Positions 1 to 7,860 of a stretch of DNA of 7,860 nt are shown here, piece after piece. Below the pieces are notes generated by a model that worked only from the letters and a program-made list of their open reading frames with translations, did not search any database and was not told where the DNA came from. The stretch is from the IMG/VR virus record IMGVR_UViG_3300029219_000192; one strand, given 5' to 3'. Position numbers and translations under genes: made by a program. Within the stretch, counting starts at the first letter, position 1; each line of letters begins with the position of its first letter. The DNA comes from a virus. Lineage: Duplodnaviria > Heunggongvirae > Uroviricota > Caudoviricetes.

Positions 1-77
1 TAAGCAGAGTTTTTGAAATGTAAGGCCTTTGAATAAGACAAAAGGCTGCCTCATCGCTAACTTTGCAACAGTGCCCT
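1..77. repeat. Left copy of a perfect 77-bp inverted repeat (partner at 7762-7838); may extend beyond the window edge
   Basis: Bases 1-77 are the exact reverse complement of 7762-7838, checked base by base; first mismatch is at 78 vs 7761. The copy runs to window position 1, so its outer limit is unknown. Confidence 0.95.
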
Positions 78-225
78 TTAAAGCACGTTTTAATCCAGGT
101 CGGCCTGTCCTTATTCCGCTTAATTTATCTTCAAATATTTGTTCACATCCTGCACAAACAAGAGCGTTTCGTTGCAGGTCTGTATTCTGGTCATTTGTTG
201 ATACCCTTACATAGCCAATCAGCAC
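76..225 (-). pseudogene. pin: Serine DNA invertase (Pin/Gin/Hin family), N-terminal 50-codon fragment fused to the inverted-repeat sequence
   Basis: Minus-strand translation from GTG at 223-225, verified codon by codon: MLIGYVRVSTNDQNTDLQRNALVCAGCEQIFEDKLSGIRTGRPGLKRALK. This matches the invertase N-terminus including the catalytic-serine motif VRVSTNDQ; GGGAG lies 7 nt upstream of the start. Homology stops at codon 50 (76-78), exactly at the repeat boundary; the frame then reads GTVAKLAMRQPFVLFKGLTFQKLCL with no stop before the window edge. The catalytic-domain remainder and C-terminal DNA-binding domain are absent. Confidence 0.85.
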
Positions 226-279
226 GCTGAATCTCCCGTCCAAAAGCACAAATCATGCCATGCAGGCCAGAAACCGCCA

Positions 280-305
280 TTATCTAAAACCTCGGTTTAC
301 AGGAA
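280..305. other. pix/gix-like 26-bp crossover site for a Gin-family invertase
   Basis: TTATCTAAAACC-TC-GGTTTACAGGAA at 280-305 fits the gix/hix-type site (two 12-bp inverted half-sites around a 2-bp core; consensus recalled from memory, about one mismatch). It lies between the pin fragment and the tail-fibre cassette, the expected position. No second convincing copy was found in the window. Confidence 0.7.
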
Positions 306-329
306 ACGGTAAACAGGGCCAGGAACGCC

Positions 330-1292
330 GTGCAAAAGAATGGCGATACCTTGTCCGGTGGGCTTACTTTTGAAAACGACTCAATCCTTGCCTGGATTAG
401 AAATACTGACTGGGCAAAGATTGGTTTTAAAAATAATGCCGACAGCGACACTGATTCATACATGTGGTTTGAAACAGGCGACAACGGCAATGAATATTTC
501 AAATGGAGAAGCCGCCAGAGCACCACAACAAAAGACCTGATGACTCTTAAATGGGATGCTTTGTCTGTCCTTGTTAAAGCCCTTTTCAGCAGTGAAGTAA
601 AAATATCGACAGTCAATGCACTGAGGATATTTAATTCATCTTTTGGTGCTATTTTTCGTCGTTCTGAAGAATGCCTGCATATCATCCCTACACGAGAGAA
701 TGAGGGAGAAAATGGTGATATAGGGCCACTACGCCCCTTTACGCTTAATCTCAGAACTGGTCGGATAAGCATGGGGCATGGTCTTGATGTTACAGGGGAT
801 ATATTTGCAAACCGTTTTGCAATTAACAGTAGTACCGGCATGTGGATTCATATGCGTGACCAGAATGTTATTTTGGGACGCAATGCGGTATCCACCGATG
901 GTGCGCAGGCATTACTTCGTCAGGACCACGCTGATCGCAAATTTATGATTGGTGGACTGGGGAATAAGCAATTTGGCATCTACATGATTAATAACTCAAG
1001 GACAGCCAATGGCACCGATGGTCAGGCGTACATGGACAACAATGGCAACTGGCTTTGCGGTGCGCAAGTTATTCCCGGCAATTATGGTAATTTTGACTCA
1101 CGTTATGTGAGAGATGTCCGACTTGGTACACGTGTTGTTCAGACTATGCAAAAAGGCGTGATGTATGAGAAATCAGGTCATGCAATTACGGGGCTTGGCA
1201 TTATCGGTGCAGTTGATGGCGATGATCCGGCAGTATTCAGACCAATACAAAAATACATCAATGGCACATGGTATAACGTCGTACAGGTGTAA
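330..1292 (+). CDS. Side tail fibre protein, C-terminal variable (receptor-binding) cassette; lacks the constant N-terminal part
   Basis: 320-aa ORF from a GTG. The N-terminal region (QKNGDTLSGGLTFENDSILAWIRNTDWAKIGFKNN...YMWFETGDNGNEYFKWR) is the conserved segment found just after the crossover site in Stf-type fibres. The frame is open from 288, just past a TAA at 285-287 inside the pin-proximal pix half-site. It is followed 3 nt later by tfa. No constant tail-fibre region lies upstream. Confidence 0.8.
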   Translation: MQKNGDTLSGGLTFENDSILAWIRNTDWAKIGFKNNADSDTDSYMWFETGDNGNEYFKWRSRQSTTTKDLMTLKWDALSVLVKALFSSEVKISTVNALRIFNSSFGAIFRRSEECLHIIPTRENEGENGDIGPLRPFTLNLRTGRISMGHGLDVTGDIFANRFAINSSTGMWIHMRDQNVILGRNAVSTDGAQALLRQDHADRKFMIGGLGNKQFGIYMINNSRTANGTDGQAYMDNNGNWLCGAQVIPGNYGNFDSRYVRDVRLGTRVVQTMQKGVMYEKSGHAITGLGIIGAVDGDDPAVFRPIQKYINGTWYNVVQV

Positions 1293-1295
1293 TTT

Positions 1296-1823
1296 ATGCA
1301 GCATTTAAAAAATATTAAGTCTGGAAATCCAAAAACAAAAGAACAATATCAGCTAACAAAGAATTTTGATGTTATCTGGTTATGGTCCGAAGACGGAAAA
1401 AACTGGTATGAGGAAGTGAAAAACTTTCAGCCAGACACAATAAAGATTGTTTACGATGCAAATAATATTATTGTCGCCATCACCAAAGATGCCTCCACGC
1501 TTAACCCTGAAGGTTATAGCGTCGTTGAGGTTCCAGATATTACAGCCAACCGCTGCGCTGATGATTCCAGTAAGTGGATGTTTAGGGACGGAGCTGTGGT
1601 TAAACGGATTTATACGGCAGACGAGCAACAACAACAGGCCGAATCACAAAAGGCCGCATTGCTTTCCGAAGCTGAATCAGTCATCCAACCGCTGGAACGC
1701 GCTGTCAGGCTGAATATGGCAACAGACGAGGAACGCACACGACTGGAAGCATGGGAACGCTACAGTGTTCTGGTCAGCCGTGTGGATACGGCAAATCCTG
1801 AATGGCCACAAAAACCAGAGTAA
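1296..1823 (+). CDS. tfa: Tail fibre assembly protein (lambda Tfa family)
   Basis: 175-aa ORF starting 3 nt after the tail-fibre stop. The C-terminal region ([34 protein letters not shown]) closely resembles the lambda Tfa C-terminus (EAW..Y.VL..RVDT...EWP). Confidence 0.85.
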
Positions 1824-1826
1824 AAA

Positions 1827-2258
1827 TTAAGGCCCGATACCGGGCAAAACATCCGTCAACAGTTCATCAATTTCTGTCGGGCCGAAGCCTGTCAGGGAGA
1901 CATCAAAATCAGCATTGATTAGGTCCGACAGCTCCATCCGCAACAGATCTTCATCCCAGCCAGCATTCATCGGTAGGCGATTATCTGCCAGGCGGTACGC
2001 CTTTTTCTGCTCATCCGTCAGGCCAGACAGAACAATGACCGGAACAGAATCCATTTTGAGCATTTCAGCCGCCATAACACGACCGTGACCCGCAATAATT
2101 TCGCCCTTTTCGTCAATCAGCACCGGATTAGTCCAGCCGAATTGCTTAATACTTTCTACCAGTTGTGCCACCTGCTCAGTACTGTGCGTCCTGGCGTTGT
2201 GCGCATACGGTGACAATTCTTGTAATGGGCGATAGACTATCTTTAATTTCTCGCTCAT
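1827..2258 (-). CDS. ParB-like nuclease-domain protein (ynaK-like by position next to trkG)
   Basis: 143-aa ORF with an AAGG RBS. The N-terminal region (PLQELSPYAHNARTHSTEQVAQLVESIKQFGWTNPVLI) resembles ParB/sulfiredoxin-type domains. It sits directly downstream of trkG, as ynaK does in the Rac prophage. Its stop codon is 3 nt from the convergent tfa stop. Confidence 0.6.
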   Translation of the reverse strand: MSEKLKIVYRPLQELSPYAHNARTHSTEQVAQLVESIKQFGWTNPVLIDEKGEIIAGHGRVMAAEMLKMDSVPVIVLSGLTDEQKKAYRLADNRLPMNAGWDEDLLRMELSDLINADFDVSLTGFGPTEIDELLTDVLPGIGP

Positions 2259-2395
2259 ACAGCCTTGCTTTATGAATAAAACGCACCCCAGCAGCCAGTG
2301 CTACTGGGGGCGGAGGTGTTGCTGGTAAAGTTAGGTATTGGATCAATGAGTGAGTCAATATAATATTAAACTCACAATTATAAATCAGCCATATA

Positions 2396-3853
2396 TTAGG
2401 AGCGCCAAAAAAAACCTGAAAACAATATAATAACAGGATAAATTTCAAGGCGACCAAGAATCATAGCTATGCACATTAAATATTTTGCAATGTCATTAAG
2501 CACTCCGAATGACGATGCAGTAGCCCCAAAACCTAATCCCATATTATTAATACATGCAGCCACTGTTGCAAATGATGTAAGAAAATCATATCCCATACCA
2601 TTTAACACCAGTATAAAAAACACCGTGAAGAGAGTATAAAGAAAAAAGAAACTCCATACAGACCTCATTACACGATCTGTAACTATCTTCCCTCCTACAT
2701 TTACACTCAACAACGCTCTGGGATGAGAAAGCTGATTTATCTCGTGTTTGCTTTGTTTGAAAAGTATAAGAAATCGAAGTGACTTAATTCCACCACAAGT
2801 TGAACCTATACATCCCCCAAAGAAACTTGACGACAGCAAAAACACTATCGTGTGCGTGGGCCAGTTTGCATAATCCTGCGTAGCTAAACCATTATCAGTG
2901 AGCATGGAGCTGGCAAGAAAAAACGAATGAATAAAACTTCCATGCAAGTCATACATACCTATATGCCAGACCTGGAAAGAGGTAACAATGATCACCCCTA
3001 AGGCTATTAACAGAAAGAAACGAAGTTCAATATCTCTGATTAAAGGTTTTATCGTTTTCCTGCTAATAACAATATACCAAAGAGTGAAGTTGAAAGCCGA
3101 TAGCAGGGAAAAAGAACCAGCCACCAGCTCAACCAAATAGTTATTAAAATATCCGATACTCTCGCTATGAGTTGAGAAACCACCAAGCGAAACTGTGGAA
3201 ATCCCGTGACAAATAGCATCAAACAAAGGCATTCCTGCAAGTCTATAACAGACAATACAAGCAATACCTAATAAAGAATAAGTTATCCACAGTGTCCGTG
3301 ACGTATCGGCCAGGCGGGGAGTGAGTTTGTCATCCTTAAATGGCCCCGGCATTTCTGACTGATAAAGCTTTGTACCACCAATACCCAATAATGGCAATAC
3401 AGCAACCGCCAGAACAATAACTCCTAAACCACCTATAAAATTTAACTGTGACCGATAGTACAAATATGCCCGAGGTAATGAACTAACATCATCAATTACA
3501 GTTGCTCCTGTTGTTGTTATTCCAGAAACCCCTTCAAACAGAGCATCAATGAACGTTAAATTAAGTTCTGAGTCAATCCATAAAGGGAATGCACTAATAA
3601 CAGAAAACAAAATCCAAAACATTACAATTATAATAAACCCATCACGGGTACGTAATTGAATGCCAGATTTCTTAGTTGTATACCACGCTCCGCCACCAAT
3701 GCAAAAAAATATAACGAAAGTTATAAAGAAAACGAACAGGCTTTTTTCTTTATAAAACAATGCTACAACCATTGGTGGCAACATTGAAAGACTATAGAGC
3801 CAAACCAGGAACCCACACATATGAGTAACAACTCTTACATGAGATGTATTCAT
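2396..3853 (-). CDS. trkG: Trk-system potassium uptake protein, TrkH/TrkG family membrane subunit (prophage-borne)
   Basis: Long, very hydrophobic ORF with repeated glycine-rich pore-loop-like segments (ITTTGATV, FIGGLGVIVL, STVSLGGFSTH, FGGCIGSTCGGIK). It is strikingly AT-rich compared with its neighbours and lies beside Rz/Rz1, as in Rac. The start is taken as the ATG at 3851-3853 (MNTSHVRV..., 485 aa); the ORF-track start at 3871 is a TTG. Confidence 0.85.
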   Translation of the reverse strand: MNTSHVRVVTHMCGFLVWLYSLSMLPPMVVALFYKEKSLFVFFITFVIFFCIGGGAWYTTKKSGIQLRTRDGFIIIVMFWILFSVISAFPLWIDSELNLTFIDALFEGVSGITTTGATVIDDVSSLPRAYLYYRSQLNFIGGLGVIVLAVAVLPLLGIGGTKLYQSEMPGPFKDDKLTPRLADTSRTLWITYSLLGIACIVCYRLAGMPLFDAICHGISTVSLGGFSTHSESIGYFNNYLVELVAGSFSLLSAFNFTLWYIVISRKTIKPLIRDIELRFFLLIALGVIIVTSFQVWHIGMYDLHGSFIHSFFLASSMLTDNGLATQDYANWPTHTIVFLLSSSFFGGCIGSTCGGIKSLRFLILFKQSKHEINQLSHPRALLSVNVGGKIVTDRVMRSVWSFFFLYTLFTVFFILVLNGMGYDFLTSFATVAACINNMGLGFGATASSFGVLNDIAKYLMCIAMILGRLEIYPVIILFSGFFWRS

Positions 3854-3990
3854 ATCTAAATATTCTTTCAATTATAACCACCTTGCTGCAATATTATGAT
3901 TATACTGTATAAAATTTAACTCCTCTTAGATCTTACTTCACTGTTCCTTATGAAACAATCATCAAAATGAATCATATTGTAGTTAAGATT

Positions 3991-4455
3991 TTACTTTAAA
4001 CACTGCTCGGTTATGTATTGCTGAGCACCTTCAAGTTGGGCCTGCATCATTACCAGTCGTTCCCGGAGGGTGAAATAATCCCGTTCAGCGGTGTCTGCCA
4101 GTCGGGGGGAGGCTGCATTATCCACGCCGGAGGCGGTGGTGGCTTCACGCACTGACTGACAGACTGCTTTGATGTGCAACCGACGACGACCAGCGGCAAC
4201 ATCATCACGCAGAGCATCATTTTCAGCTTTCGCATCAGCTAACTCCTTCGTGTATTTTGCATCGAGCGCAGCAACATCACGCTGACGCATCTGCATGTCA
4301 GTAATTGCCGCGTTCGCCAGCTTCAGTTCTCTGGCATTTTTGTCGCGCTGGGCTTTGTAGGTAATGGCGTTATCACGGTAATGATTAACAGCCCATGACA
4401 GGCAGACGATGATGCAGATAACCAGAGCGGAGATAATCGCGGTTACCCTGCTCAT
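3991..4455 (-). CDS. Rz: Rz i-spanin (inner-membrane lysis protein)
   Basis: Near-identical to lambda Rz along its length ([68 protein letters not shown]...). The start is taken as the ATG at 4453-4455, which overlaps the upstream endolysin-remnant stop as ATGA; the track start at 4467 is a GTG. Confidence 0.9.
4050..4235 (-). CDS. Rz1: Rz1 o-spanin (outer-membrane lipoprotein), embedded in Rz in the +1 frame
   Basis: 61-aa ORF wholly inside Rz. It has a lipoprotein signal with lipobox LVVVGC and a proline-rich region ([24 protein letters not shown]), matching lambda Rz1. Confidence 0.85.
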
Positions 4456-4676
4456 TGTTGCCCCCACAAACAGACCTCACGCTCAATCTCACGACGAGTC
4501 ATCAGGCCTTTCCATTGCTTACCGCCAGCGTATGCCCAGCGACGTAGCTGGTCACATGCGCCCTTGATATCGCCCTGGTTTATTTTGCGAAGAAGAGTAG
4601 ATGTTCTGAAATTGCCTGCGCCCACGTTATAGACGAACGAGTAAAGAGCGCCGCGCGTTGTTTCCGGTAGGTGCGA
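4452..4676 (-). pseudogene. Phage endolysin (lysozyme, R21/RrrD-like) 3' remnant: about the last 70 codons only
   Basis: Minus-strand frame ending at the TGA that overlaps the Rz start: ...[71 protein letters not shown]. This matches the C-terminus of lambdoid lysozymes (from memory). The frame is closed upstream by a TGA (plus 4677-4679) with no start codon; the N-terminal catalytic part and the holin gene are absent. Confidence 0.6.
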
Positions 4677-4794
4677 TCACTTTCGTCTACTCCGTTACAA
4701 AGCGAGGCTGGGTATTTCCCGGCCTTTCTGTTATCAGAAATCCCCTGAAAGCACAGCGGCTGGCTGAGGAGATAAATAATAAACGGGGGGCTGT

Positions 4795-4986
4795 ATGCAC
4801 AAAGCATCTCCTGTTGAGTTAAGAACGTGTATCGAGATGGCACATAGCCTCGCTCAAATTGGAGTCAGGTTTGTGCCAATACCAGTAGAAACAGACGAAG
4901 AATTTCATACGTTAGCCGCATCCCTTTCACAAAAGCTGGAAATGATGGTGGCGAAAGCAGAAGCAGATGAGAGAGACCAGGTATGA
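4795..4986 (+). CDS. Small early-region protein, YdfA-like (63 aa)
   Basis: ATG ORF with a G-rich RBS, MHKASPVELRTCIEMAHSLAQIGVRFVPIPVETDEEFHTLAASLSQKLEMMVAKAEADERDQV. Its stop overlaps the next start as ATGA. It resembles, from memory, the first gene of the ydfA-ydfB-ydfC trio of the Qin prophage. Confidence 0.5.
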   Translation: MHKASPVELRTCIEMAHSLAQIGVRFVPIPVETDEEFHTLAASLSQKLEMMVAKAEADERDQV

Positions 4987-5066
4987 CAACCACTGAATGC
5001 ATTTTTCTGGCAGCGGGCTTCATATTCTGTGTGCTTATGCTTGCCGACATGGGGCTTGTTCAATGA
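4983..5066 (+). CDS. Small hydrophobic peptide, YdfB-like (27 aa)
   Basis: MTTTECIFLAAGFIFCVLMLADMGLVQ, a single predicted transmembrane helix. ATGA overlaps with both neighbours suggest translational coupling. The alternative reading is that the next gene starts at 4997 in another frame (93-aa track ORF). Confidence 0.35.
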   Translation: MTTTECIFLAAGFIFCVLMLADMGLVQ

Positions 5067-5278
5067 CACCTCAGCAAGAAAACGCCCTTCGCAGCATTGC
5101 CCGTCAGGCTAATTCTGAAATCAAAAAAGCCAGACAGCAGTTTCCGGATAAAAACGTCGATGACATTTGCCGTAGCGTACTGAAGAAGCACCGCGAAACG
5201 GTAACGCTGATGGGATTCACACCGACTCATTTAAGCCTGGCAATCGGCATGTTAAACGGCGTCTTTAAGGAACGATGA
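5063..5278 (+). CDS. Small early-region protein, YdfC-like (71 aa)
   Basis: MTPQQENALRSIARQANSEIKKARQQFPDKNVDDICRSVLKKHRETVTLMGFTPTHLSLAIGMLNGVFKER. The start overlaps the upstream stop as ATGA. Same frame as the 93-aa track ORF (4997-5278), but the coupled start at 5063 is preferred. Confidence 0.5.
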   Translation: MTPQQENALRSIARQANSEIKKARQQFPDKNVDDICRSVLKKHRETVTLMGFTPTHLSLAIGMLNGVFKER

Positions 5279-5299
5279 ACATGAAAAGCAAAATTATCA

Positions 5300-5324
5300 G
5301 GGAGCTACAGGCTCCTTTTTTATT
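5300..5324 (+). terminator. Short GC hairpin plus T-tract (weak intrinsic terminator or small-RNA 3' end)
   Basis: GGAGC (5301-5305) pairs with GCTCC (5311-5315) around a 5-nt loop, followed by TTTTTTATT. The stem is only 5 bp, so confidence is low. Confidence 0.25.
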
Positions 5325-5376
5325 GCTCGCATTTACCCCCAAGCGTATTAACCAACAATTCAGGGATTAATGGAAG

Positions 5377-5598
5377 ATGGCAGACATCATTGATTCAGCA
5401 TCAGAAATTGAAGAATTACAGCGCAACACAGCAATAAAAATGCGCCGCCTGAACCACCAGGCTGTATCTGCCACTCATTGTTGTGAGTGTGGCGATCCCA
5501 TAGATGAGCTAAGACGCCTGGCCGTTCAGGGTTGTCGGACTTGTGCAAGTTGCCAGGAAGATCTGGAGCTTATCAGTAAACAGAGAGGTTCGAAGTGA
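5377..5598 (+). CDS. DksA/TraR-family C4-type zinc-finger protein (phage TraR-like)
   Basis: 73-aa ORF with four-cysteine motif ...HCCECGDPIDELRRLAVQGCRTCASCQ... Size and motif are typical of TraR-like proteins in lambdoid early regions. Confidence 0.8.
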   Translation: MADIIDSASEIEELQRNTAIKMRRLNHQAVSATHCCECGDPIDELRRLAVQGCRTCASCQEDLELISKQRGSK

Positions 5599-5846
5599 GC
5601 GTAATTCACTCTCAGGCACTGCGTGAAGCGGCAGAGCAGGCAATGCCTGACAACTGGGGATTTGACGCGGACCTTTTCCATGAGCTGGTAACACCATCGA
5701 TTGTGCTGACACTGCTGGATGAACGGGAAAGAAACCAGCAATACATCAAACGCCGCGACCAGGAGAACGAGGATATTGCGCTAACGGTGGGGAAACTGCG
5801 TGTTGAGCTGGAGACAGCAAAAATCAAAACTCAACGAGCAGCGTGA
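5595..5846 (+). CDS. Ead/Ea22-like early protein, N-terminal part; ORF closed by TGA but coding-like frame continues to 6008
   Basis: GTG start overlapping the TraR-like stop (GTGA). MSVIHSQALREAAEQAMPDNWGFDADLFHELVTPSIVLTLLDERERNQQYIKRRDQENEDIALTVGKLRVELETAKIKTQRAA resembles Ea22-family N-termini (from memory). After the TGA at 5844-5846 the same frame stays open for 53 more codons. Confidence 0.45.
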   Translation: MSVIHSQALREAAEQAMPDNWGFDADLFHELVTPSIVLTLLDERERNQQYIKRRDQENEDIALTVGKLRVELETAKIKTQRAA

Positions 5847-6144
5847 GTAGAAGGTGTTATCTCGGATGGAAGTAAGCGTATTGCTGAACTGGAGGCCTGG
5901 GTTGAATACACAAGAGCTGCATACGTAAGAGCAAAAGACAAGGGAGATTTGATCAGAGTTATTACCCGCCAACCAACGGGATTTTACGCTTACGTACCAT
6001 GTAATTAGGAATCCTTGAAGTGGCAGCCTAACTGCGGATACACTGAAATGGCGATTTGGTAACATGTTTCGCACAAGGCTGTTACTACACTTAGAGATAA
6101 TCAGCCATGATTAAACGCTTTGTAAAAAGTAAAAGGAAATTACA

Positions 6145-6759
6145 ATGAAAAAATCAATACTAATTTTAGGGCTTACGTTAATTGTCTCATCTCAAATACC
6201 ATCGGCAATGGCAAAAAATGAATCAAAACTATGGGTTGTTGTTGATCGAACGGAAAGACATACCTGCCCTTCAAGTAAATGTGGAGTGGCTGGGAAACTA
6301 TTTTTCAGGGAAGGCGTAGATTTTCTAGAAAAAAAAGGTGAATGGGTTCGTATAACTGAGCCATATTCAGCCTCATGTGTTGGAGGGGAAAGCGAATATA
6401 TTAAAGAAGGTAATAAATCCTGCACAAGAAAAAATGGAATCGTTAATGGCAAGTTTTCAGAATGGGTTAAACTTAGTGATCTTAGCAGTGAAAGGCCATC
6501 AGATCCTGCTGAAAATGCGAGCGGAGATGATACTTTAATCAAAGGATCTGATGACTACCGTATATACAAAAAAGAGTTTTCTTCGGCAGCTAGGAAGTTA
6601 ATAAATGAAGGGGTCTGCACGGAAAGCGATTTTAAGGAAATCGGAGGGTGGATGGCATCAAGCAATAAGGGTGAAAACATCTATTTCACATATTGCGGAG
6701 GAATGACGTTGTCGAACAGAATATACCTAGATGTTAAAAGTGGAAAGACTTTTAGATAA
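6145..6759 (+). CDS. Secreted (Sec signal peptide) cysteine-containing protein of unknown function; AT-rich cargo gene
   Basis: 204-aa ORF with an AAGGAA RBS. N-terminal MKKSILILGLTLIVSSQIPSAMA-KNE is a typical signal peptide with an AxA cleavage site and no lipobox. Several Cys lie in the mature part. Composition is visibly AT-rich compared with flanking genes, and a strong terminator follows. Confidence 0.7.
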   Translation: MKKSILILGLTLIVSSQIPSAMAKNESKLWVVVDRTERHTCPSSKCGVAGKLFFREGVDFLEKKGEWVRITEPYSASCVGGESEYIKEGNKSCTRKNGIVNGKFSEWVKLSDLSSERPSDPAENASGDDTLIKGSDDYRIYKKEFSSAARKLINEGVCTESDFKEIGGWMASSNKGENIYFTYCGGMTLSNRIYLDVKSGKTFR

Positions 6760-6829
6760 TATGATATTACCAATGACAGTATTGATTTAATGCCTCCATA
6801 GAATTATCTCTAGGAAGTAGGTATAAGAA

Positions 6830-6866
6830 AAGCCCGCACAATGAGCTGCTGCGGGCTTTGTGTTAT
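6830..6866 (+). terminator. Rho-independent terminator downstream of the secreted-protein gene
   Basis: AAGCCCGCA (6830-6838) pairs with TGCGGGCTT (6850-6858) around an 11-nt loop, followed by TTTGTGTTATT. Confidence 0.7.
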
Positions 6867-6912
6867 TCGCCATATTTTATGAAGCAAATACGACACTATA
6901 GATAATTAAGCG

Positions 6913-7052
6913 TTGCTGGTTGTCGATTCCTCAATCACTCCTGTTGATGGCTCTCTTCTTGTATGTGCCATTGAAGGGGAATATCGCGTAAAAAGATACC
7001 GGAAGTATCCGCGCCGCCATGATTGTCTTTCTCCTGATGCAGGAAAAGCAGA
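6913..7052 (+). pseudogene. S24 peptidase (LexA/UmuD/cI-type) C-terminal-domain remnant
   Basis: LVVDSSITPVDGSLLVCAIEGEYRVKRY resembles the conserved core of the S24 autoproteolytic domain (compare UmuD LLIVDSAIT...VIAAVDGEFTVKKL). There is a stop codon 6 nt upstream of 6913, no catalytic-Ser region, and the downstream translation is not protein-like. The homologous core is roughly 6913-7000. Confidence 0.4.
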
Positions 7053-7391
7053 ATGGCTAAATCAGCAACAGAGCACAAAGCCGATCAGAGAGCCAAGCAA
7101 GCATCATCCGGTATGCGTAAGCTGGAGCTTGTACTTGATGCTCAGGAAATTGAAATGCTGGAGCGTAACTGTGCCACGCGTCGCTTCAGGCGTGCGCCTT
7201 GCGAGTTTGGTGAGTACATCGCGTTACTGAGCCGCCAGGATGATGCACGTGTGCGCTGGCGTATAAAATCGATCAGCAGAAAACGGTGCGGTAAGTGCGG
7301 CGAGAGAGTTCCTGTTAATTCATGCCCGTGTAATGGTGACTCACAATGCTGGGTGACCAAAGGCTGGCACGAAACAAAATTAATGATATAA
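7053..7391 (+). CDS. Hypothetical protein with C-terminal Cys cluster (putative zinc ribbon)
   Basis: 112-aa ATG ORF with an AGGA RBS. C-terminal C-x2-C-x8-C-x-C-x5-C (RCGKCGERVPVNSCPCNGDSQCW). No family recognised. Confidence 0.6.
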   Translation: MAKSATEHKADQRAKQASSGMRKLELVLDAQEIEMLERNCATRRFRRAPCEFGEYIALLSRQDDARVRWRIKSISRKRCGKCGERVPVNSCPCNGDSQCWVTKGWHETKLMI

Positions 7392-7397
7392 ATCTCT

Positions 7398-7409
7398 GTG
7401 ACATGTCAC
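7398..7409. promoter_or_regulatory. Perfect 12-bp palindrome GTGACATGTCAC between the two module genes (candidate protein-binding site)
   Basis: Exact dyad symmetry at 7398-7409, in the 28-bp gap immediately upstream of the RBS (GGAGG) of the 7420 gene. Confidence 0.3.
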
Positions 7410-7419
7410 GGAGGCGGCA

Positions 7420-7782
7420 ATGAAATTAGACCAGCAATATCTAAAAGATCTACTTATCGCATTCGAAAAAACTCGTGGCCCTGACACGATGCTTAGTGAA
7501 CTAGAGGATAATGGCTTTAATAGATATGACCAAGATTTTATTTTCCATATGCGATTATTATGTGACTACGAATTAATAGTCAGGGTTGATGGAAAACCTG
7601 GGTTCGGTCATATATTGTCCAAAGCGTTAGGGGAAGGTGTTGGATATAGTTGGATCGAAGTACCACTGAGGTTGACAGCAAGAGGGCATGATTTTATTGC
7701 TGACTTACGTCAAAAGGATGTCTGGCAAGCTATAAAAACAAACTTTAAGGATGAGGGAATTAGGGCACTGTTGCAAAGTTAG
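7420..7782 (+). CDS. Hypothetical protein (120 aa), AT-rich; its last 6 codons lie inside the right inverted repeat
   Basis: ATG ORF with a GGAGG RBS 7 nt upstream. Protein-like composition, no recognised motif. Visibly AT-rich. It ends ...EGIRALLQS* with the stop at 7780-7782. Confidence 0.65.
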   Translation: MKLDQQYLKDLLIAFEKTRGPDTMLSELEDNGFNRYDQDFIFHMRLLCDYELIVRVDGKPGFGHILSKALGEGVGYSWIEVPLRLTARGHDFIADLRQKDVWQAIKTNFKDEGIRALLQS

Positions 7783-7838
7783 CGATGAGGCAGCCTTTTG
7801 TCTTATTCAAAGGCCTTACATTTCAAAAACTCTGCTTA
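7762..7838. repeat. Right copy of the perfect 77-bp inverted repeat
   Basis: Exact reverse complement of 1-77. Covers the last 6 codons and stop of the 7420-7782 ORF plus 56 bp downstream. Confidence 0.95.
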
Positions 7839-7860
7839 CCAGGCGCATTTCGCCCAGGGG

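What the first reader, a model, noticed from the sequence alone, without database searches (positions are those of the whole stretch)
3991..4794. Decayed lysis cassette and breakpoint joining late and early regions
Rz and the embedded Rz1 look intact, but the endolysin is only a 3' remnant of about 70 codons, closed upstream by a TGA at 4677-4679, and no holin gene is present. About 115 bp further on, plus-strand early-type genes begin. Lysis and early regions are far apart in intact lambdoid genomes, so a deletion or inversion endpoint lies near 4665-4680 and the prophage cannot lyse.
Basis: partly seen in the sequence, partly recalled or inferred. Interest (0 to 1): 0.45.

Follow-up and report, generated by a model that had tools for sequence, protein, structure and literature searches.

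The report
Deletion scar in a defective lambda-like prophage
This is the scar of one 13.3-kb deletion in a lambda-like prophage of E. coli, which removed the holin, half of the endolysin and all control and replication genes; it is ordinary prophage decay and is already marked as a partial gene in public genomes.

Summary
On the minus strand lie an intact Rz (3991-4455), an embedded Rz1 (4050-4235) and only the last 71 codons of a phage 21/434-type SAR endolysin (4455-4669). No holin is present. The plus-strand genes that follow are the lambda exo-xis block: orf60a, orf63, an orf61-position ORF, orf73 and an ea22-like fragment.

A far more complete sister prophage sits at the same lambda attachment site (ybhB/ybhC) in E. 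coli WP8-S18-CRE-02. It matches both flanks with no mismatch, in the same order and orientation, with 13,322 bp between them. That interval holds exo, bet, gam, kil, cIII, cI, cro, cII, O, P, nin genes, Q, the holin and the 5' part of the endolysin gene. The event was therefore one short-homology deletion, not an inversion.

The same junction occurs in 21 of 5,426 complete E. coli genomes. K-12 Rac carries the same Rz-trkG module with a different, independent breakpoint.

Verdict: real, correctly read, ordinary. Side observation: the same remnant also sits at a lambda-core-like site on plasmids and is bounded by IS26.

The parts
3991..4455 (-). Rz (i-spanin), 154 codons plus stop, intact. The ORF finder extends it to a GTG at 4467.
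   Evidence: PF03245, E 3.7e-53. 94% identical over full length to the 434 i-spanin. 100% nucleotide identity to the sister prophage that has a complete cassette. Annotated as lysis protein WP_000092276.1.
4050..4235 (-). Rz1 (o-spanin lipoprotein), 61 codons, embedded in Rz in another frame, intact.
   Evidence: PF06085, E 2e-19. Identical to K-12 RzoR and 95% identical to the 434 o-spanin. A lipobox-like LVVVGC motif and a proline-rich stretch are visible in the alignment.
4452..4669 (-). 3' remnant of a phage 21/434-type SAR endolysin (rrrD-like): codons 95-165 plus the stop at 4452-4454. It has no start codon, no SAR domain and no catalytic residues.
   Evidence: PF00959 profile positions 63-125 only. 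71/71 identical to 434 R residues 95-165. Nucleotide homology to intact phage endolysin genes stops at 4669 in all listed records. Annotated 'lysozyme RrrD, incomplete, missing N-terminus'.
4666..4669 (.). Deletion junction: GGTA, shared by both parental sequences. With one gap the shared stretch is TCCGG(G)TA.
   Evidence: Three-way alignments against phage 434 R and phage Chlobot/lambda orf60a and against both sites in the sister prophage L009.
4677..4679 (-). First in-frame stop (TGA) upstream of the endolysin remnant. It lies in antisense orf60a sequence.
   Evidence: Read from the sequence. Its position relative to the junction follows.
4666..4822 (+). orf60a (DUF1317), missing its first 26 nt (about 9 codons), its ribosome-binding site and its upstream operon. 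PGAP calls a 54-aa ORF from a TTG at 4658.
   Evidence: PF07026 profile positions 10-60 of 60, E 2.7e-32. In Chlobot and lambda imm21 the full gene starts 26-32 nt before the point where homology begins, and overlaps the end of exo.
4795..4986 (+). orf63 (DUF1382), intact.
   Evidence: PF07131, E 7.9e-32, profile positions 1-60 of 60. Same protein accession, WP_000548514.1, as in the sister prophage.
5063..5278 (+). Small ORF at the position of orf61 (hypothetical protein WP_000188870.1).
   Evidence: PGAP annotation. It lies within the block that is 97.8-100% identical to lambda and Chlobot. No Pfam hit.
5377..5598 (+). orf73-like TraR/DksA zinc-finger protein.
   Evidence: PF01258, E 1.5e-08. 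Same position as the DksA/TraR gene of lambda imm21.
5595..5894 (+). ea22-like gene, frameshifted and truncated. This damage is older than the deletion, because the sister prophage has it too.
   Evidence: PF13935, E 1.3e-20. The same pseudogene annotation appears in the remnant and in the sister.
2396..3853 (-). trkG, a potassium-transporter cargo gene directly downstream of Rz. It defines the Rz-trkG module shared with K-12 Rac.
   Evidence: PF02386, E 8.9e-144. 99.3% nucleotide identity to K-12 Rac across window 2005-4435.

Best explanation
The region is the scar of a single deletion of about 13.3 kb in a mosaic lambdoid prophage. That prophage had lambda-type int, xis, att and exo-xis region, a phage 21/434-type lysis cassette, and trkG downstream of Rz. 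It was integrated at the E. coli lambda attachment site between ybhB and ybhC.

The deletion joined codon 95 of the endolysin gene to nucleotide 27 of orf60a, across a 4-bp shared GGTA. This points to illegitimate, short-homology end joining or replication slippage rather than site-specific or IS-mediated recombination.

The deletion removed exo, bet, gam, kil, cIII, the immunity region, O, P, the nin genes, Q, the holin and the first 94 codons of the endolysin gene. What remains of the lysis cassette is Rz/Rz1, with its translation signals, plus a catalytically dead endolysin tail. The late promoter and the Q antiterminator are gone.

The element can therefore neither be induced, nor replicate, nor lyse the cell. 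Rz and Rz1 look intact because the event is recent: there are no substitutions on either flank relative to the sister prophage. This is not evidence that they are used.

Shown here: the anatomy, both parental sequences, the exact junction, collinearity and the distribution. Inferred: the molecular mechanism of joining, the lack of expression and the loss of the lysis function.
For: - Gene identities.
- Left homology to intact endolysin genes ends at 4669 in all listed phage records. Right homology to the exo-xis region of lambda and relatives starts at 4663-4666. Base-level alignments show the shared GGTA.
- Sister prophage at the same chromosomal site: window 1838-4669 equals L009 18139-20970 (2,832 nt, 100%). 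Window 4666-7763 equals L009 34289-37386 with no mismatch. Both are on the same strand and in the same order, and 13,322 bp are missing between them.
- The same collinearity holds in free phages mEp332 and ev243, where both halves match on the same strand about 14 kb apart.
- A reconstructed intact arrangement, trkG-Rz-R-S, exists in 651 of 5,426 complete E. coli genomes.
- The junction itself is in 21 genomes, all 100% identical.
- The native context, with canonical att cores on both sides, is seen in strains 027_SK3 and E2.
- There is no IS, no repeat and no RNA family at the junction.
- There is no sigma-70-like site on the minus strand upstream of the cassette within 4455-5100.
Against: Nothing contradicts it. 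Three limits apply.

- The sister prophage carries an IS1 inside the interval. The true ancestor may therefore have lost about 12.5 kb rather than 13.3 kb, or the interval may already have been shortened by earlier events.
- The joining mechanism cannot be read from a 4-bp overlap alone.
- Absence of expression is inferred from a simple consensus scan and from the loss of pR' and Q. It was not measured.
Confidence: 0.95

Rival explanations
1. The junction is an inversion endpoint. A segment of the prophage was flipped, which brought the lysis genes next to the early genes.
For: Rz and the endolysin remnant are on the minus strand while the exo-xis genes are on the plus strand. At first sight this could suggest a flip.
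Against: In an integrated lambda the pL operon (exo to int) and the late operon (S, R, Rz) are transcribed in opposite directions, so divergent strands are what a plain deletion produces. In the sister prophage and in free phages both flanks match on the same strand and in the same order. No second inversion endpoint is needed or found.
Confidence: 0.01
2. The net junction is the product of several steps, such as IS1-adjacent deletions or homologous exchange between mosaic phages, rather than one short-homology deletion.
For: The sister prophage has an IS1 between the holin gene and the Q region. Lambdoid phages exchange modules often. The window holds other breakpoints: a ParB-like gene cut at about 1838 and IS26 ends.
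Against: No IS sequence or IS end is left at 4666-4669. An IS-adjacent deletion would leave the IS in place. The two sequences that were joined are unrelated genes on opposite strands and share only 4 bp, so homologous exchange cannot have made this junction. Earlier internal losses cannot be excluded, but the final joint is still a single event.
Confidence: 0.05
3. 4452-4625 or 4452-4676 encodes a short but functional lysozyme, so the cassette is not dead.
For: An ORF of 57 codons with a GTG start exists at 4452-4625. The retained part is 100% conserved.
Against: The retained part corresponds only to residues 95-165. The SAR membrane anchor and residues E35, D44 and T50 lie in the missing part. 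These three are the catalytic residues of the phage 21 endolysin by established knowledge, not tested here. The Pfam match covers only the C-terminal half of the domain. Conservation is explained by recency, since the flanking non-coding DNA is equally identical.
Confidence: 0.01
4. The junction is an assembly artefact, that is, a chimeric contig.
For: None beyond the general possibility.
Against: The identical junction is present in 21 independent complete E. coli genomes, on chromosomes and plasmids. It is also on plasmids of Enterobacter, Citrobacter and Klebsiella.
Confidence: 0.005

Closest known systems
Sister prophage at the lambda attachment site of E. coli WP8-S18-CRE-02 (NZ_AP022245.1; locus L009)
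   Same: Same chromosomal site (ybhB/ybhC). Same int, xis, exo-xis genes, Rz and trkG, with identical protein accessions. Both flanks of the junction match with no mismatch.
   Different: It still holds the 13,322 bp between the two breakpoints: holin essD, full-length rrrD, Q, nin genes, O, P, cII, cro, cI, sieB, cIII, kil, gam, bet, exo and full orf60a. It also keeps head genes. It is itself cut by IS1 at the tail end.
Cryptic prophage Rac of E. coli K-12 (rzpR, rzoR, trkG, ynaK)
   Same: The Rz-Rz1-trkG-ynaK module is 99.3% identical over window 2005-4435. RzoR is identical to the Rz1 found here. Rac is also a lambdoid remnant that lost its holin and endolysin by deletion.
   Different: Rac's breakpoint is inside Rz, where homology ends at window 4435, 20 nt short of the Rz start codon, and it is joined to ydaW. 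Rz is therefore a pseudogene there and no endolysin remnant is left. Rac sits at a different attachment site (ttcA/ttcC) and keeps its immunity and replication genes. The two deletions are independent.
Lysis cassette of phages 21 and 434 (pinholin S, SAR endolysin R, Rz/Rz1); DLP12 essD-rrrD-rzpD/rzoD is recalled from memory as a relative
   Same: The remnant and Rz/Rz1 are 94-98% identical in nucleotides to these cassettes, with the same overlapping R-stop/Rz-start arrangement.
   Different: The pinholin and endolysin codons 1-94 are absent here. The last 20 or so residues of Rz and the last residues of Rz1 differ from those of phage 434 and match Rac instead.
exo-xis region of phage lambda (orf60a, orf63, orf61, orf73, ea22, ea8.5)
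   Same: Same gene order and 97.8% nucleotide identity to lambda over window 4666-5300, and 100% to phage Chlobot. The region is described in PMC6213356, PMC5575149 and PMC8614690.
   Different: orf60a has lost its first 9 or so codons. The pL promoter and everything upstream of it are gone. ea22 is frameshifted, and the part closer to xis differs from lambda.

Membership tests
Rz i-spanin (Pfam PF03245) | Profile match above the curated cut-off, over the full length | tested here: met
   179.5 bits against a cut-off of 25.4; profile positions 1-125 of 126.
Rz i-spanin (Pfam PF03245) | Full-length, uninterrupted reading frame collinear with a phage i-spanin, including the N-terminal hydrophobic segment | tested here: met
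   154 aa against 153 aa of the 434 i-spanin, 94% identical, with no gap except at the last residues. The N-terminal segment [18 protein letters not shown] is identical.
Rz1 o-spanin (Pfam PF06085) | Profile match; lipoprotein signal with a lipobox cysteine; proline-rich mature part; gene embedded in Rz in another frame | tested here: met
   69.5 bits against a cut-off of 27.9. LVVVGC and PPPPP are seen in the alignment. Coordinates 4050-4235 lie inside 3991-4455.
Spanin function (outer-membrane disruption at lysis) | Expression together with a holin and an endolysin from the late promoter | not testable with these tools
   Holin, Q and pR' lie in the deleted interval. No promoter-like site was found upstream on the minus strand. 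Expression was not measured.
Phage 21-type SAR endolysin (T4-lysozyme-like, Pfam PF00959) | Sequence homology to the family | tested here: met
   83.6 bits against a cut-off of 22.3, but only profile positions 63-125 of 125. 71/71 identical to 434 R residues 95-165.
Phage 21-type SAR endolysin (T4-lysozyme-like, Pfam PF00959) | N-terminal signal-anchor-release (SAR) domain | tested here: not met
   Residues 1-94 are absent and are found nowhere else in the window.
Phage 21-type SAR endolysin (T4-lysozyme-like, Pfam PF00959) | Catalytic residues (E35, D44, T50 in phage 21 R; their role is from established knowledge) | tested here: not met
   These positions lie in the missing N-terminal 94 residues of the aligned 434 protein. 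The region is a gene remnant, not a functional member.
Complete lambdoid lysis cassette (holin, endolysin, spanins) | Holin gene directly upstream of the endolysin gene | tested here: not met
In the sister prophage essD lies in the deleted interval.
Lambda exo-xis region | orf60a (DUF1317), orf63 (DUF1382), a TraR/DksA zinc-finger gene and ea22, in this order, between exo and xis | tested here: met
   Pfam hits. Order and identity to lambda imm21 and Chlobot. xis and int follow just beyond the window in related genomes.
Prophage integrated at the lambda attachment site | Flanked by the 15-bp lambda att core on both sides, between ybhB (bio side) and ybhC (gal side) | tested here: met
   Cores at L007 11767 and 23407 in strain 027_SK3. 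Same flanking genes in strain E2. The window itself is cut by IS26 before reaching either att site.
Short-homology (illegitimate) deletion | Both parental sequences known, collinear, sharing only a few bases at the joint, with no mobile element or recombinase site | tested here: met
   4-bp GGTA overlap. Collinearity. No repeats or IS at the joint. The enzymology cannot be tested with these tools.

The most novel reading that the evidence does not exclude
The doubly deleted remnant of about 11.6 kb has no immunity, replication, head, tail or working lysis genes. It keeps int, xis, both att sites and the cargo gene trkG, and it may still behave as a mobile integrative cassette.

After the deletion it would have been excised from the chromosomal lambda site and integrated by Int into a lambda-core-like secondary site (TTATTATAAAAATTT) next to a dps-family gene on large environmental plasmids. 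There IS26 trimmed it, and it spread to Klebsiella, Citrobacter and Enterobacter.

The alternative is that a full phage integrated there, and the deletions were later copied between plasmid and chromosome by homologous recombination.
Probability: 0.45. Interest if true: 0.35.

Novelty: already known. Interest (0 to 1): 0.13.

Why it matters
It matters little beyond annotation. The region is a clean, base-resolved example of how lambdoid prophages are disarmed. One short-homology deletion removes every gene that could kill the host (kil, holin, endolysin catalytic part) together with immunity and replication. A host-useful cargo gene (trkG) and harmless leftovers (Rz/Rz1, exo-xis ORFs) remain.

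Comparison with K-12 Rac shows that the same Rz-trkG module was disarmed twice, by independent deletions with different endpoints.

The practical point for annotators concerns the Rz/Rz1 pair, the 54-aa 'DUF1317 protein' and the 143-aa ParB-like ORF called in these genomes. The first is an orphan and the other two are products of deletion joints, so none should be read as evidence of an active phage.

Tried and rejected
- Inversion: rejected, because both flanks are collinear and on the same strand in the sister prophage and in free phages.
- IS-mediated or repeat-mediated deletion: no IS end, direct repeat or inverted repeat at or around the joint.
- A hidden holin or 5' endolysin part elsewhere in the window: tblastn found nothing.
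- A structured RNA in the window: no Rfam family reaches its threshold.
- A promoter that could drive the orphan Rz/Rz1: the consensus scan found no minus-strand site between 4455 and 5100. This is weak evidence.
- An exact 40-mer scan for the junction in one genome per bacterial species found nothing, so the junction is absent from all species-representative genomes.
- A search for a plasmid that keeps the predicted attR joint of the secondary-site insertion found none. Int-mediated integration into the plasmid therefore rests on the attL side only.
- A literature search for trkG with IS26 and plasmids gave no paper describing this element.

Full report
**Observation**

- The ORF at 3991-4467 (the ATG at 4455 gives 154 codons) matches the Rz profile PF03245 over its whole length, E 3.7e-53.
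- The ORF at 4050-4235, embedded in it in another frame, matches Rz1 (PF06085, E 2e-19).
- The frame 4455-4676 matches only positions 63-125 of the 125-position phage lysozyme profile PF00959, E 1.8e-23.
- Rz is 94% identical to the i-spanin of phage 434 along its full length.
- Rz1 is identical to K-12 RzoR and 95% identical to the 434 o-spanin, with the lipobox-like LVVVGC motif and the proline run in place.
- The endolysin piece equals residues 95-165 of the 165-residue 434 SAR endolysin, 71 of 71 identical. Residues 1-94 are missing.
- The missing part contains the hydrophobic N-terminal anchor and positions E35, D44 and T50. By established knowledge of the phage 21 endolysin these are the catalytic residues; I did not test this.

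**The plus-strand genes**

The genes to the right are the lambda exo-xis block.
- 4658-4822 is DUF1317 (orf60a), profile positions 10-60 of 60.
- 4795-4986 is DUF1382 (orf63).
- 5377-5598 is a TraR/DksA zinc finger (the orf73 position).
- 5595-5846 is Ead/Ea22-like.
- Window 4666-5300 is 97.8% identical to lambda and 100% identical to phage Chlobot.
- In annotated lambda imm21 and Chlobot the same stretch lies directly after exo, in the order orf60a, orf63, orf61, DksA-like, ea22 and so on to xis and int.
- In related genomes xis and int follow about 0.3 kb beyond the right end of the window.

It is orf60a without its first 26 nt. The exo-xis region is described in PMC6213356, PMC5575149 and PMC8614690.

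**The junction**
- Homology to intact endolysin genes in phages ends at window 4669 in all 40 listed records.
- Homology to the exo-xis region begins at 4663-4666.
- Base-level alignment shows the endolysin parent reading ...TTTCCGGTA|TATCG and the orf60a parent reading ...ATATCCGGGTA|GGTGCG.
- The window reads ...TTTCCGGTAGGTGCG. Both parents share GGTA at 4666-4669, or TCCGG(G)TA if one gap is allowed.
- No IS end, direct repeat or inverted repeat lies at or near the joint.

**Proof that it is a deletion**

I built the predicted ancestral sequence from window 3700-4669 plus the upstream endolysin and holin genes of phage 434.
- 651 of 5,426 complete E. coli genomes hold this arrangement, trkG-Rz-R-S, in one piece.
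- The best of them, strain WP8-S18-CRE-02, carries a much more complete prophage between ybhB and ybhC, which is the lambda attachment site.
- That prophage has the same protein accessions for int, xis, the exo-xis genes, Rz and trkG as the genomes that carry the remnant.
- Window 1838-4669 equals L009 18139-20970: 2,832 nt with no mismatch.
- Window 4666-7763 equals L009 34289-37386 with no mismatch.
- Both matches are on the same strand and in the same order, and 13,322 bp lie between them.
- That interval holds the 5' 94 codons of rrrD, the holin essD, an IS1, two cargo genes, Q, ylcG, rusA, nin genes, ren, P, O, cII, cro, the repressor, sieB, an ea10-like gene, cIII, kil, gam, bet, exo and the start of orf60a.
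- Free phages mEp332 and ev243 give the same picture, with about 14 kb between the two matches.

An inversion is excluded. Opposite strands on the two sides of the joint are simply the normal divergent orientation of the pL and late operons in an integrated lambda.

**Where it lives and how common it is**
- The native form is seen in E. coli 027_SK3 and E2: ybhB, att core, a diguanylate cyclase gene, tail-fibre and invertase fragments, a truncated ParB-like gene, trkG, Rz/Rz1, the endolysin remnant, the exo-xis genes, xis, int, att core, ybhC.
- The whole element is about 11.65 kb there.
- An 80-mer across the joint is present in 21 of 5,426 complete E. coli genomes, always 100% identical, on 12 chromosomes and 9 plasmids.
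- It is absent from one-genome-per-species representatives.
- PGAP already annotates 'lysozyme RrrD, incomplete, missing N-terminus' at this spot.

**Comparison with Rac**
- K-12 Rac matches window 2005-4435 at 99.3%.
- Its own deletion joint lies 20 nt short of the Rz start codon and is fused to ydaW. Rz is therefore a pseudogene and no endolysin remnant is left.
- The same Rz-trkG module has thus been disarmed at least twice, independently.

**How it works, or rather does not**

Shown here: the cassette lacks a holin, the endolysin start and its N-terminal 94 residues. The deleted interval contained Q and everything between Q and the holin gene.

Inferred:
- Without pR' and Q there is no late transcription. 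A simple scan finds no sigma-70-like site upstream on the minus strand (weak evidence).
- Without a holin and an active endolysin, spanins cannot act, by established knowledge of lambda lysis.
- The intact state of Rz/Rz1 reflects the youth of the event, since both flanks have no substitutions relative to the sister. It does not indicate selection.
- The loss of kil, holin and endolysin fits the common pattern in which host-killing functions are the first to go in domesticated prophages. That is a general inference, not something tested here.

**Seen in passing**

1. The window is bounded by IS26 ends at 1-75 and 7764-7860, both showing the same end of the element, so the two copies are inverted relative to each other. 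The left copy cuts an invertase gene and the right copy cuts a DUF2513 gene.

2. A second deletion joint lies at about 1837/1838. There a 262-aa ParB-like gene is cut after 140 codons and joined to the region downstream of a tail-fibre assembly gene. All head and tail genes are missing.

3. On plasmids the remnant, with the same two joints, is followed after int not by ybhC but by a dps-ArsR-oxidoreductase block.
   - Homology with the chromosomal copy stops inside the att core.
   - The unoccupied plasmid site reads GTGTACCTGG TTATTATAAAAATTT GAGGCG, an 11-of-15 match to the lambda core.
   - 168 plasmids have this empty site.
   - About 15 carry the remnant, in E. coli, Klebsiella, Citrobacter and Enterobacter.
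   - Strain 027_SK3 has the remnant in its chromosome and the empty site on its own plasmid.
   - No plasmid keeps the attR side.
   - Strain S43 looks like a plasmid-chromosome cointegrate formed within the remnant, so homologous exchange between copies does happen.
   - I therefore cannot decide whether the remnant itself moved by Int after the deletion, or whether the deletions were copied between copies by recombination.

**Verdict**

This is an ordinary, already annotated case of prophage decay. Interest is low.

Noticed in passing
window 1-75 and 7764-7860: Both window ends are IS26 termini (14-bp terminal repeat GGCACTGTTGCAAA at 62-75 on the minus strand and 7764-7777 on the plus strand). 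The two stretches are reverse complements of each other, so the two IS26 copies are in inverted orientation around a 7,688-bp prophage fragment. The left copy truncates an invertase (resolvase-family) gene and the right copy truncates a DUF2513 gene.
   Followed up: partly
window about 1824-1840 (joint at 1837/1838): A second deletion joint. The ParB-like gene (262 aa in the sister prophage) is cut after 140 codons, giving the 143-aa ORF at 1827-2258, and is joined to the region just downstream of the tail-fibre assembly gene. All terminase, head and tail genes are gone. K-12 ynaK diverges at a different point (window 2005).
   Followed up: partly
window 76-1823: An invertase fragment (76-225, minus strand), a tail-fibre C-terminal part without a start (about 290-1292, plus strand) and a tail-fibre assembly gene (1296-1823, plus strand). 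They lie in inverted orientation relative to trkG and Rz. This looks like the 'alternative' half of a Pin/Gin-type invertible tail-fibre segment with its invertase (a resemblance recalled from memory). It shows no detectable nucleotide similarity to K-12 stfR or tfaR.
   Followed up: no
L002 22180-22200 (plasmid pABWA45_1), L010 5989-6003 (empty site, p027_SK3a), L007 23407-23421 (chromosomal attL): The same doubly deleted remnant occurs next to a dps-family gene on plasmids. The switch from phage to plasmid sequence falls exactly inside a lambda-core-like sequence, TTATTATAAAAATTT. 168 plasmids have this site empty. This suggests Int-mediated integration at a secondary attachment site, possibly after the deletion. 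No plasmid keeps the attR side.
   Followed up: partly
L012 (E. coli S43 chromosome) 4319-14405: In S43 the IS26-truncated left end of the remnant is preceded by plasmid genes (a Tn3-family transposase and ParA), while the right end runs through int into ybhC. This looks like a plasmid-chromosome cointegrate formed by recombination within the remnant.
   Followed up: no
window 5595-5894 and 6913-7020: A frameshifted ea22-like gene and a short UmuD-like 'DNA repair protein' fragment. Both defects are also present in the more complete sister prophage, so they are older than the 13.3-kb deletion.
   Followed up: partly
L007 12422-13753 (outside the window): A sensor diguanylate cyclase gene sits between attR and the tail-fibre fragments of the native remnant. 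It is a second cargo gene besides trkG, and it is lost from the IS26-bounded copies.
   Followed up: no
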